Assembly: GCF_054482595.1 (NCBI RefSeq)
Contig: NZ_CM137008.1
Strand: one strand, 5' to 3'
Length of the DNA stretch: 64,000 bases
The first letter of the stretch is position 1, and every line of letters begins with the position of its first letter. The position numbers were made by a program. Of the stretch, positions 3,001 to 6,000 are shown one piece after another.

Positions 3001-6000
3001 CCCAATCATTCCCTTCTTTGTTGCCTCGCTGATTCTCGATGGTTCCGCATCCATGATTCACAGTCTGGTTACTATTGATATGACCACCATCTTGTCGCTG
3101 ATGTATCTGGCGTTTGTGGCGACAATTGTTGGTTATGGGATCTGGGGGACGTTACTGGGACGCTATGAAACCTGGCGGGTTGCACCGTTATCGTTACTGG
3201 TGCCCGTAGTCGGACTGGCAAGTGCGGCACTATTGTTGGATGAACGCTTAACGGGTCTGCAATTTTTAGGTGCGGTGCTCATTATGACCGGGCTGTATAT
3301 CAATGTATTTGGCTTGCGGTGGCGTAAAGCGGTAAAGGTTAGAGGCTAAACCATACGCACAGAATGTGATGTCAGCACTCTGTGCGTCTGCTTTTATCGC
3401 GGGAAAAAGTACTTTACCTGGAACTCGAAAATATTGCTGTAAAGTAACGAATAATCCAGCGGAATAGAGTTACTGTCCACAGCCTGGGTCTGAATTTTAA
3501 GTATGGGATCCCGTGGGCTGATCCGTAAAATACTGGCGATTTCTGGGGTAGGAAAAGTAGGGGAGAAAGTTTCAAAGGTGCCAATGATTTTGATCCCGCA
3601 TTCATTCTCAATATATGAAAATTTGGATTTTTGCATATGTGACACGGTTAAATCAGGAAAACGTGCTACTGACATCCACGTTTCTTCTAATTGTGCTGCA
3701 TTATCCTCAATGAATCGCAGTCTCTTTATGTAATAAACCTGCTCACCAGTCACTAAATTCAGCTCAGTCGCAATAGTGGGTGAAGCATCCTGCACTTCAA
3801 ATTTCATAATCTGACTCCCTGCCTCTTTGCCGCTTTTATGCGCAATTTCACTGAAACTGTTCATGTGATCAATGTGTGCAACAAAATTCTTTTTTTGAAT
3901 GTATGTTCCTGAACCATGCTTTCTGTGAATAATTCCTTCGCCTTCCAGCAAGGATAATGCCTTACGCAGGGTATTACGCGAAACATTATAACGAACAGCG
4001 AGTTCCGCTTCTGACGGCAACAAATCACCAACATGCCATGAATTGCCATTGATTTCGGATTTAAGTAAGCGGGCAATCTTTTGAAAAATCACTTTTGCAC
4101 CTTTTAAGAGCCATTGAAAACAAGGAGTTGAGTCCTGATTGTTTTATCGTATGGCCGAGTCGTTTAATAATCACCCTGATGTTGAACAACTTTATCACTG
4201 TATTACTGTGATCAATGTACCAGGACGTATAGCTACTGCGGGATATGATATTTAAACAATGTAATCTGTTATATACCAGTAAGGGAAAATATGAAAAAAA
4301 TATTGTTAGTTTGCGCTGCGGGCATGTCAACCAGTATGCTGGTTAAACGTATGATTGATCATGCTAACGCTATTTCACTTGAAGTTAATATTTCCGCATT
4401 GGCGATTGCAGAGGCTAAAGGGAAAATTAAAAATAACGAAGTTGACGTTGTTTTACTTGGCCCGCAAGTTCGCTTTCAGAAACCAGAGATTGAAGCCGTT
4501 GCACAGGGGAAAATGCCTGTAGCCGTTATCGAGATGAAAGACTACGGCACCATGAACGGACAGGCAGTTCTTGAATTTGCGATGAAACTACTGCAAGAGT
4601 AAGAATCTAATATTATTAAACTATTACCTGAACTAACTTTTCACACATCATAAAATGGATATGGCATACATGCTTTATTGGGATGTATAAATATCCAAAA
4701 CAACAGGTATAAAAAAATGGGATTAATGGCCTCATTCGAACGTGGAATGGAACGTTTTCTTGTTCCAGTTGCTATCAAGTTAAACTCACAAAAACATGTT
4801 GCAGCGGTGAGAGATGGATTCGTTTTTACGTTTCCAATTATCATGGCAAGTTCATTAATTATATTAATTAACTTTGCCATATTATCGCCAGACGGTTTTA
4901 TTGCCGGATTACTGCATCTGAATAGCATTTTCCCCAACCTTGAAAAAGCACAAGCTATTTTTACTCCGGTAATGAATGGTTCTGTAAATATCATGTCAAT
5001 TATGATTGCTTTCCTGGTCGCCAGGAATATGGCGATTAGCTATGAGCAAGATGATCTTTTATGCGGATTAACGGCAATAGGAGCATTTTTTATTGTTTAT
5101 ACGCCATATCAGATGATAGATGGGCAAGCATTCCTGACGACCAAATATCTCGGCGCGCAGGGGTTGTTTGTTGCTGTTATCGTTGCATTGATCACCAGTG
5201 AAATATTTTGTCGCTTAGCTCGAAACCCAAAAATCACCATAACGATGCCGGCAGCTGTACCGCCTGCGGTAGCGCGTTCATTTAAAGTTTTATTGCCAAT
5301 ATTTTTTGTCATGGTGTTCTTTTCCGCACTTAATTATTGCCTGGCACTGATATCCCCGGCAGGACTAAACGATCTTATTTACACATTAATCCAGACGCCG
5401 CTCAAACATATGGGAACGAATATCTTTGCGGTAATTATCCTGGGGGCTGTGGGTAATTTCCTGTGGGTGCTGGGGATCCACGGACCTAATACCACATCGG
5501 CAATTCGAGAAACCGTTTTTTCTGAGGCTAATCTGGAGAATCTCTCCTGGGCCGCTCAACATGGCACTACCTGGGGCGCGCCATATCCGATTACCTGGAC
5601 TTCTATTAATGATGCATTCGCCAACTGCGGCGGCTCAGGTATGACGTTGGGGTTATTGTTGGCTATTTTTATCGCTTCTAAGCGTGCGGAATACCGTGAT
5701 CTGGCAAAAATGTCATTTATCCCCGGTATTTTCAATATCAATGAACCGATAATGTTTGGCCTTCCTATTGTACTTAACCCCATCATGATGGTGCCGTTTA
5801 TTATGGTTCCCATTGTTAACTGTGCCATTGGTTACTTCTTTGTTTCGATGGAAATTATTCCACCGGTTGCTTATGCCGTGCCCTGGACTACGCCCGGACC
5901 TTTAATTGCTTTCCTCGGAACCGGGGGGAACTGGCTGGCTTTACTGGTTGGTTTTTTATGTTTAGGTGTGGCGACAATGATCTATTTACCTTTTGTTATT

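What the first reader, a model, noticed from the sequence alone, without database searches (positions are those of the whole stretch)
4093..4290. Candidate operators for the island GntR/HutC regulator in the divergent promoter region
The 198-bp region between the regulator gene and PTS IIB contains the near-palindrome CTGTTATATACCAG (12/14 symmetric, about 4263-4276) just upstream of the IIB ribosome-binding site, and a second symmetric element ATCACTG...CTGTGATCA (about 4195-4216). HutC-subfamily repressors bind short AT-centred palindromes, so these are plausible operator sites that would make the locus inducible by its phospho-sugar product.
Basis: inference. Interest (0 to 1): 0.3.

Follow-up and report, generated by a model that had tools for sequence, protein, structure and literature searches.

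The report
Known bgc operon control region
The 198-bp gap is the control region of the already described E. coli bgc beta-glucoside operon; one proposed operator is really half of a CRP activator site, the other is found only in Escherichia, and a different conserved repeat further upstream is the better candidate for the regulator's binding site.

Summary
Both palindromes exist, at slightly different coordinates: CTGTTATATACCAG is 4266-4279 and ATCACTGTATTACTGTGAT is 4194-4212. As palindromes, neither exceeds chance.

The locus is the published bgc operon (bgcR plus bgcEFIHA), inserted between eamA and marB. Its regulator BgcR is reported as a positive regulator, not a repressor.

Sixteen orthologous intergenic regions, from Escherichia to Yersinia and Erwinia, share one fixed layout:
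- a split inverted repeat, A-N3-GTTCA-N16-TGAAC-N3-T (E. coli 4158-4191);
- 18-19 nt further on, a CRP-type site, TGTGAyC-N9 (4207-4222);
- exactly 21 nt further on, a TAnnnT -10 hexamer (TATGAT, 4244-4249).

This is a class II CRP promoter with a predicted start near 4256.

Its left arm is polymorphic even within E. coli.

The first palindrome lies at about +11 to +24. It matches the NagR/DasR operator consensus 9/10, but is conserved only in Escherichia, although the BgcR recognition helix is identical in all orthologs.

The repeat arms resemble HutC half-sites and are the best candidate BgcR activator site. This is an inference.

Interest is low.

The parts
3394..4092 (-). bgcR, a GntR/HutC-family regulator (winged HTH plus UTRA domain), GTG start
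   Evidence: Pfam GntR 1.9e-19 and UTRA 4.8e-30. RefSeq annotates it as a GntR family regulator. The closest solved structures are NagR/YvoA at 4e-22.
4119..4129 (.). Conserved block AAC-N5-GTT, 27-37 nt upstream of the bgcR start codon; role unknown (bgcR promoter, 5' UTR or a second site)
   Evidence: Conserved columns in the 14-way alignment. Majority-base fraction 0.67.
4158..4191 (.). Split inverted repeat A-N3-GTTTA-N16-TGAAC-N3-T (arms 4162-4166 and 4183-4187), centred at about -81.5; candidate BgcR activator site
   Evidence: Present with an exact N16 spacer in 16/16 orthologous regions. Arm conservation is 0.92 and 0.96, against 0.57 for the spacer. The pooled half-site is aaAgwkGTTCAwTTTt, with G and T invariant in 32/32 half-sites. 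The arms are invariant in the E. coli alleles sampled.
4194..4212 (.).
   Evidence: The left arm (4194-4198) is unconserved at 0.43 and polymorphic at 4195-4197 within E. coli. The right arm is the CRP half-site.
4207..4222 (.). CRP-type site TGTGATCAATGTACCA (8/10 of the TGTGA-N6-TCACA core), centred at 4214.5, which is -41.5
   Evidence: [T/A]GTGAyC is present in 16/16 orthologs; conservation is 0.94 with 5 invariant columns. It is the only TGTGA in the region. CRP dependence of bgc is published (abstract of Neelakanta et al. 2009, recalled from memory).
4244..4249 (+). -10 hexamer TATGAT of the bgc promoter; predicted transcription start near A4256
   Evidence: A TAnnnT hexamer lies exactly 21 nt after the CRP 16-mer in 16/16 orthologs. 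The sigma-70 consensus scan, which requires both a -35 and a -10 hexamer, reports no site on the + strand, as expected for an activator-dependent promoter.
4266..4279 (.).
   Evidence: 12/14 symmetric. One mismatch to TGGTnTAnACCA. Invariant in 9 E. coli alleles and one change in E. albertii. Background-level conservation of 0.51 across 15 lineages. No RNA structure, z = 0.2.
4291..4602 (+). bgcE, PTS IIB (lactose/cellobiose type), first gene of bgcEFIHA
   Evidence: Pfam PTS_IIB 5.7e-19. The downstream genes are IIC, IIA, a LamB-type porin and a GH1 phospho-beta-glucosidase.

Best explanation
The 198-bp region is the divergent control region of the known bgc beta-glucoside operon.

bgcEFIHA is transcribed from a class II CRP-dependent promoter:
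- CRP binds TGTGATCAATGTACCA (4207-4222), centred at -41.5.
- The -10 hexamer is TATGAT (4244-4249).
- There is no usable -35.
- Transcription starts near 4256.

Upstream, centred near -81.5, lies a split inverted repeat (4158-4191). Its arms (k-GTTCA) resemble HutC-family half-sites. The most likely reading is that BgcR binds these arms and helps CRP and RNA polymerase, which would explain the published positive control by BgcR. It could bind either as two dimers, each anchored on one strong outer half-site, or as one dimer with its DNA-binding domains spread apart.

At most it is a lineage-specific auxiliary BgcR site.

Shown here: sequence architecture and conservation. Inferred: who binds what, and the transcription start.
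For: Locus identity:
- The gene set is GntR/UTRA regulator, IIB, IIC, IIA, LamB-type porin and GH1.
- It sits between eamA and marB.
- The intergenic query covers at least 80% in 2497 of 5426 complete E. coli genomes.
- It is present in E. albertii.
- BgcR is cited as a positive regulator.

Architecture:
- The repeat, then 18/19 nt, then TGTGAyC, then 21 nt, then TAnnnT, holds in 16/16 orthologs.
- These include loci with different gene order (Yersinia) and different chromosomal neighbours.
- The elements therefore travel with the island.
- Conservation: repeat arms 0.92/0.96, CRP half 0.94, -10 hexamer 0.73, against a background of 0.46-0.58.

Repeat arm changes are never compensatory. Examples are TGCAC opposite GTTCA, GTTCC and GTTCT opposite TGAAC, and GTTTA opposite TGAAC. 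This argues for a protein site rather than a hairpin.

Recognition logic:
- The BgcR recognition helix and wing are identical in all 15 orthologs, so a shared operator is expected.
- BgcR keeps the equivalents of NagR Arg48 and Gly69 but has Ala at the Arg38 position.
- In NagR, Arg48 reads G-4 and Arg38 reads G-5.
- The repeat arms have invariant G-4 and T-3 and a variable -5 position.

The + strand has no match to the sigma-70 consensus scan (-35 plus -10).
Against: - No binding or transcript data were available here. The primary paper could not be read, so the transcription start, the CRP site and the BgcR site are predictions.
- Half-sites 21 bp apart are not the known geometry for GntR-family dimers, whose half-sites are separated by 5-8 nt.
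- The right half of the CRP site is weak: 3/5 in E. coli and 1/5 in Raoultella and Kluyvera.
- Palindrome 1 matches the canonical family operator better than either repeat arm region does.
- The repeat could be bound by a host factor rather than BgcR.
Confidence: 0.55

Rival explanations
1. One reading: both palindromes are operators of a HutC-type repressor, which is released by a phospho-beta-glucoside so that the operon is induced.
For: The regulator is a HutC/UTRA protein, and most members of that family are sugar-phosphate-released repressors. Palindrome 1 is 9/10 to the dre consensus and lies between the predicted start and the Shine-Dalgarno sequence.
Against: BgcR is reported to control bgc positively. 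The left arm of palindrome 2 is polymorphic in E. coli and unconserved, and its right arm is the CRP half-site. Palindrome 1 is absent outside Escherichia despite an identical recognition helix.
Confidence: 0.07
2. Palindrome 1 alone is a genuine, Escherichia-specific BgcR site. It would give BgcR a dual role: activation from the upstream repeat and roadblock repression at +11 to +24 without inducer. This could contribute to the cryptic state of bgc in E. coli.
For: There is one mismatch to TGGTnTAnACCA, with about 0.005-0.016 such matches expected in 198 bp. It is invariant in 9 E. coli alleles, with one change in E. albertii. A related T[G/T]T[T/A]ATATA core sits at the same place in the Citrobacter, Salmonella and Enterobacter orthologs.
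Against: The left half has T instead of the G at -4, the base read by the conserved arginine. The outer CTG/CAG arms are not conserved, at 0.42 and 0.49. A 14-mer of this symmetry is expected in 28% of shuffles. Three consensus patterns were tried before this match was found.
Confidence: 0.25
3. The conserved split repeat is bound by a host factor other than BgcR, or it belongs to the bgcR promoter. BgcR would then act elsewhere, for example at the AAC-N5-GTT block (4119-4129).
For: The 21-bp half-site spacing is not the known HutC geometry. A second conserved block exists at 4119-4129. The repeat lies a fixed 68-69 nt from the bgcR start codon in 14 of the 15 regions where the distance could be measured.
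Against: The repeat travels with the island into different genomic neighbourhoods and genera. Its arms carry the G-4/T-3 signature of GntR-family half-sites. No -10-like hexamer is conserved at a fixed distance from it on the bgcR strand. It does not match any E. coli regulator consensus I could recall (CRP, FNR, Cra, NagC/Mlc, LexA, CytR); this is from memory, not tested.
Confidence: 0.15

Closest known systems
bgc operon and BgcR of E. coli (Neelakanta, Sankar, Schnetz 2009, Appl Environ Microbiol 75:2284; PMC2675225)
   Same: This is the same locus. It has divergent bgcR plus IIB, IIC, IIA, a porin and a phospho-beta-glucosidase, and it is present in E. albertii. It is cited as cryptic and positively controlled by BgcR. 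CRP dependence is from my memory of the abstract.
   Different: Nothing differs at the locus level. I could not read the paper, so I do not know whether it maps the start site, the CRP site or a BgcR site. The split repeat and its conservation are my own observations.
NagR/DasR dre operators (GntR/HutC family; PMC4333415)
   Same: NagR is the closest solved homologue of BgcR. Palindrome 1 matches TGGTnTAnACCA 9/10. The repeat arms share G-4, T-3 and A+1 with a dre half-site.
   Different: NagR and DasR are repressors with half-sites 6 nt apart. The conserved bgc repeat has 24 nt between the equivalent G and C. BgcR lacks the Arg38 equivalent and is reported to be an activator.
BguR (S. pneumoniae) and GmuR (B. 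subtilis), cellobiose or glucomannan PTS regulators
   Same: Both are HutC-type regulators encoded next to, or within, a cellobiose-type PTS operon. The BguR authors state that they are similar to BgcR.
   Different: Both are repressors with a compact operator, ATGTnTAnACAT (BguR: AAAAATGTCTAGACAAATTT), overlapping the -35. No such conserved operator exists in the bgc regions.
Class II CRP-dependent promoters with an upstream co-activator (for example galP1 for class II; melAB for CRP plus MelR)
   Same: The CRP site is centred at -41.5, the -35 is poor, and a second regulator site lies upstream on a fixed spacing.
   Different: The co-activator here would be a HutC-family protein. I know of no characterised example of that; this statement rests on memory.

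Membership tests
bgc operon (bgcR-bgcEFIHA) | Gene content: a divergent GntR-type regulator plus PTS IIB, IIC, IIA, a porin and a phospho-beta-glucosidase | tested here: met
   The Pfam assignments of all six products fit. The RefSeq annotation agrees.
bgc operon (bgcR-bgcEFIHA) | Variable presence in E. coli; present in E. albertii; homologues in Klebsiella, Enterobacter and Citrobacter relatives | tested here: met
   The intergenic query covers at least 80% in 2497 of 5426 complete genomes. E. albertii is 86% identical. Orthologs exist in Citrobacter, Enterobacter, Salmonella, Raoultella and Kluyvera.
HutC/GntR operator (dre-type palindrome bound by one dimer): palindrome 1 | Match to the family consensus GTnTAnAC / TGGTnTAnACCA | tested here: met
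   TGTTATATACCA has 1 mismatch in 10 specified positions.
HutC/GntR operator (dre-type palindrome bound by one dimer): palindrome 1 | The guanine at -4, read by the conserved arginine of helix 3, present in both half-sites | tested here: not met
   The left half reads T-G-T-T, with T at -4. Only the right half has G-4 (contacts).
HutC/GntR operator (dre-type palindrome bound by one dimer): palindrome 1 | Conserved in orthologous loci whose regulators share the recognition helix | tested here: not met
   The helix is identical in 15 orthologs. The site is conserved only in Escherichia, at 0.51, which is background.
HutC/GntR operator (dre-type palindrome bound by one dimer): palindrome 1 | Bound by the cognate regulator in vitro or in vivo | not testable with these tools
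   This needs an EMSA, a footprint or ChIP.
HutC/GntR operator: palindrome 2 | Both arms conserved, and a family consensus present | tested here: not met
   The left arm is polymorphic in E. coli with conservation 0.43. There is no GTnTAnAC match. The right arm is the CRP half-site.
Class II CRP-dependent promoter | A TGTGA-N6-TCACA-type site | tested here: met
   The E. coli core matches 8/10. The left half is conserved in 16/16 orthologs, and the right half is TnnCA in most.
Class II CRP-dependent promoter | Site centred near -41.5, overlapping a poor -35 | tested here: inconclusive
   The spacing of exactly 21 nt to a TAnnnT hexamer in 16/16 orthologs implies -41.5, and no + strand site passes the -35 plus -10 consensus scan. 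The transcription start itself is predicted, not measured.
Class II CRP-dependent promoter | Expression depends on cAMP-CRP | not testable with these tools
   This is published for bgc according to the abstract of Neelakanta et al. 2009 (my memory). The paper is not held.

The most novel reading that the evidence does not exclude
BgcR, an unusual activator within the HutC family, recognises a split operator. Its two HutC-type half-sites (k-GTTCA) sit two helical turns apart at about -81.5 and are conserved across at least 16 enterobacterial lineages. From there it co-activates a class II CRP promoter. That binding geometry has not been described for GntR/HutC proteins, whose known half-sites are 5-8 nt apart.
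Probability: 0.35. Interest if true: 0.4.

Novelty: already known. Interest (0 to 1): 0.2.

Why it matters
There is little here for general biology. The locus, its CRP dependence and its positive control by BgcR were published in 2009.

The re-analysis is useful for three reasons:
- It corrects a plausible-looking but largely wrong operator assignment.
- It gives exact, testable coordinates for the CRP site, the -10 hexamer and the start site.
- It points to a conserved split repeat as the likely BgcR site.

If BgcR does bind that repeat, it would be an example of a HutC-family activator with a non-canonical operator geometry. That is of interest mainly to specialists in GntR-family regulators and in cryptic beta-glucoside systems of extraintestinal pathogenic E. 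coli.

Tried and rejected
- Primary paper. Neelakanta et al. 2009 is not held under its DOI or PMC id. The citing papers give only a one-line summary.
- Palindrome 1 as an RNA element. The predicted 5' UTR folds no better than shuffles, z = 0.2, and the palindrome leaves too short a loop.
- The split repeat as a hairpin. Seven lineages carry arm changes and none is compensatory.
- The repeat arms as back-to-back -35 hexamers of divergent promoters. No conserved -10 lies at the right distance on either strand.
- LexA box for palindrome 1. CTGT-N6-CCAG is 2 bp shorter than CTGT-N8-ACAG. This is from memory of the consensus.
- The MngR/FarR-like TGTATTA at 4199-4205 (motif recalled from memory). 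It is not conserved outside Escherichia.
- A dre-like match overlapping the bgcR start codon in Raoultella, Erwinia and Cedecea. It is explained by the Met-Val-Tyr codons GTG-GTn-TAy and is absent in E. coli.
- More distant relatives on plasmids. The 35-38% identical regulators belong to alpha-glucoside loci, have different recognition helices and lack the repeat, so they say nothing about it.
- A minus-strand promoter-like match, ATAACA-16-TATCAT, at 4272-4245. Two matches were found against 1.7 expected, so it was not pursued.
- The genome-contig scan gave only 3 loci. The other orthologs came through protein look-ups.
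Full report
**What the window is.** The window is E. coli chromosome, 100% identical to several complete genomes. The finding lies in an island between eamA and marB. The island encodes:
- a GntR/UTRA (HutC-type) regulator at 3394-4092(-);
- divergently, PTS IIB (4291-4602), IIC and IIA;
- a LamB-type porin;
- a GH1 6-phospho-beta-glucosidase.

This is the gene set of the bgc operon (bgcEFIHA plus bgcR) described by Neelakanta, Sankar and Schnetz in 2009. I could not open that paper. [quoted passage not shown] From my memory of the abstract, expression also needs CRP, and a single promoter mutation (bgc*) makes it independent of BgcR. The intergenic region is present in about 2500 of 5426 complete E. 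coli genomes.

**Checking the observation.** Both palindromes exist.
- CTGTTATATACCAG is at 4266-4279, 3 nt right of the stated position. It is 12/14 symmetric.
- ATCACTGTATTACTGTGAT is at 4194-4212, with 8 of 9 arm pairs complementary.
- In 5000 dinucleotide-preserving shuffles of the 198-bp region, a 14-mer as symmetric as the first appears in 28% of shuffles.
- A 19-mer as symmetric as the second appears in 2.9% of shuffles.
- A palindrome of any length from 16 to 26 nt with at most one mismatched pair appears in 20%.

As bare palindromes they are unremarkable.

**Comparison across orthologous islands.** I collected the bgcR-proximal intergenic region from 15 further loci. They are E. albertii, a divergent E. 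coli allele, Citrobacter koseri, C. amalonaticus, Citrobacter sp., Salmonella, Enterobacter asburiae, Superficieibacter, Raoultella, Kluyvera, Cedecea, Yersinia, Erwinia and two unnamed assemblies. Regulator identity ranges from 87% down to 51%. The islands sit in different chromosomal neighbourhoods, and some have a different gene order: IIC comes first in three, and GH1 comes first in Yersinia.

All 16 regions share one fixed layout:
- an inverted repeat GTTCA-N16-TGAAC with an exact 16-nt spacer. Its arms extend to A-N3-GTTCA and TGAAC-N3-T (E. coli 4158-4191);
- 18 or 19 nt later, [T/A]GTGAyC (E. coli 4207-4213);
- exactly 21 nt after the 16-mer that starts there, a TAnnnT hexamer (E. coli TATGAT, 4244-4249).

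The majority-base fraction over 15 lineages is as follows:

| Element | Fraction |
|---|---|
| Repeat arms | 0.92 and 0.96 |
| TGTGAyC | 0.94 |
| -10 hexamer | 0.73 (three invariant columns) |
| Unconstrained stretches | 0.46-0.58 |

**The promoter.** TGTGATCAATGTACCA matches 8 of 10 core positions of the CRP consensus TGTGA-N6-TCACA. It is the only TGTGA in the region. If the TAnnnT hexamer occupies -12 to -7, the centre of the site (4214.5) is at -41.5 and the start is near A4256. This is the geometry of a class II CRP-dependent promoter. The consensus scan, which requires both a -35 and a -10 hexamer, finds no site on the + strand. That fits an activator-dependent promoter and the published CRP dependence. 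The transcription start is a prediction.

Its right arm is the CRP half-site. Its left arm (4194-4198) has a conservation of 0.43, is CTTGC in E. albertii, and varies among E. coli alleles: ATCAC, AGTGC, ATTAC and ATTGC. It is a chance partner of a real CRP half-site, not an operator.

With the predicted start, it lies at +11 to +24, directly before the Shine-Dalgarno sequence.

In favour:
- Its core TGTTATATACCA matches the NagR/DasR dre consensus TGGTnTAnACCA with one mismatch.
- NagR is the closest solved homologue of BgcR.
- Such matches are expected 1.63 times per 64 kb in shuffles. Five others occur in the window, all in coding sequence. So 0.005-0.016 are expected in 198 bp.
- It is invariant in nine E. 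coli alleles and has one change in E. albertii.

Against:
- This was one of three patterns I tried.
- The single mismatch removes the guanine at -4 of the left half. In NagR that base is read by Arg48, the arginine that BgcR keeps as R39. The neighbouring G-5 is read by Arg38, which is Ala29 in BgcR and varies among orthologs.
- Outside Escherichia the site is not kept. Citrobacter, Salmonella and Enterobacter have only an AT-rich TTTAATATAnnA at that place. Raoultella, Kluyvera, Cedecea, Yersinia and Erwinia have nothing.
- Its columns are at background level, 0.51.
- The recognition helix VSRNTLRKAL and the wing HGSGT are identical in all 15 orthologs, so a shared operator would be expected.
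- The 5' UTR has no significant RNA structure.

**The conserved split repeat.** Pooling 32 half-sites gives aaAgwkGTTCAwTTTt. G and T are invariant, and an A four bases outside the arm is present in 30 of 32. Read against the NagR complex, the arm is k(-5) G(-4) T(-3) T(-2) C(-1) A(+1). That is a dre half-site with the conserved G-4/T-3 and a free -5 position, as expected for a protein that lacks the Arg38 contact.

Changes in one arm are never compensated in the other. Examples are TGCAC opposite GTTCA in Salmonella, Enterobacter and Cedecea; GTTCC or GTTCT opposite TGAAC in Superficieibacter, Erwinia and Yersinia; and GTTTA opposite TGAAC in E. coli, E. albertii and the P0011 locus. The conservation is therefore to a protein-binding consensus, not a hairpin.

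The repeat moves with the island between genera and chromosomal sites, which favours the island's own regulator over a host factor. It is centred about 40 bp upstream of the CRP site, a reasonable place for a co-activator.

The weak point is geometry. Known GntR-family half-sites are 5-8 nt apart, whereas here the equivalent G and C are 24 nt apart. Two readings are possible:
- two dimers each use one strong outer half-site and a degenerate inner one;
- a single dimer binds with its DNA-binding domains spread apart.

I cannot distinguish these. A further conserved block, AAC-N5-GTT (4119-4129), lies 27-37 nt upstream of the bgcR start codon, and I cannot explain it.

**Comparison with what is known.** The locus and its regulatory logic (CRP plus a positive BgcR) are already published. 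Related cellobiose-PTS regulators BguR and GmuR are repressors with compact ATGTnTAnACAT operators, and no such conserved operator exists here. More distant paralogues at 35-38% identity, from alpha-glucoside loci on plasmids, have different recognition helices and lack the repeat.

**Verdict.**
One element is a misread CRP site. The other is a family-like but lineage-restricted sequence of uncertain function. The repressor model conflicts with the literature.
- The region is best described as a known class II CRP promoter with a conserved upstream split repeat, which is the likely BgcR site.
- Interest is low (0.2).
- The most novel reading not excluded is a non-canonical split operator for a HutC-family activator (probability about 0.35).

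Noticed in passing
window 4119-4129: A conserved AAC-N5-GTT block lies 27-37 nt upstream of the bgcR start codon in most of the aligned orthologs. Its role is unknown; it could be the bgcR promoter, part of the 5' UTR or an autoregulatory site.
   Followed up: partly
L025 (NZ_CP065615.1) 878-2916: In E. coli FDAARGOS_943 a deletion fuses a truncated eamA to the bgc region at about window position 4201. This removes bgcR and the split repeat but keeps the CRP site and promoter. An IS1 interrupts the IIC gene. The locus is decaying in this strain.
   Followed up: no
window 17303, 27185, 48225, 55291, 59505: Five further one-mismatch matches to the dre consensus TGGTnTAnACCA occur in the window, making 6 in all against 1.63 expected from shuffles. 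All five lie inside coding sequences (glsB, lsrC, ydeP, yddA, pqqL). This is probably a codon-composition effect rather than a set of operators.
   Followed up: partly
window 4245-4272, minus strand: A sigma-70-like match (ATAACA, 16 nt, TATCAT) points towards bgcR. Its -35 lies inside palindrome 1 and its -10 lies opposite the bgc -10. Two such matches were found in the region against 1.7 expected by chance.
   Followed up: no
L012, L013, L014, L016 (position about -126 from TGTGA; overlaps the regulator start codon): In Raoultella (TGGTTTATAACA, one mismatch), Erwinia, Cedecea and Kluyvera, the first codons of the regulator (GTG-GTn-TAy, Met-Val-Tyr) create a dre-like half or full site over the start codon. 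This is probably driven by the coding sequence, and it is absent in E. coli.
   Followed up: partly
window 4215-4223 and 4271-4279: ATGTACCAG and ATATACCAG form a direct repeat 56 bp apart. The first copy is the right half of the CRP site and the second is the right half of palindrome 1. The TACCAG motif is not kept in E. albertii, so this is probably chance.
   Followed up: partly
plasmid records NZ_CP141086.1 and NZ_CP141085.1 (hits H46, H47): Two records filed as E. coli plasmids (42 kb and 386 kb) carry a 100% identical bgcR. Several multi-megabase 'plasmid' records also matched. These look like chromosomal pieces filed as plasmids.
   Followed up: no
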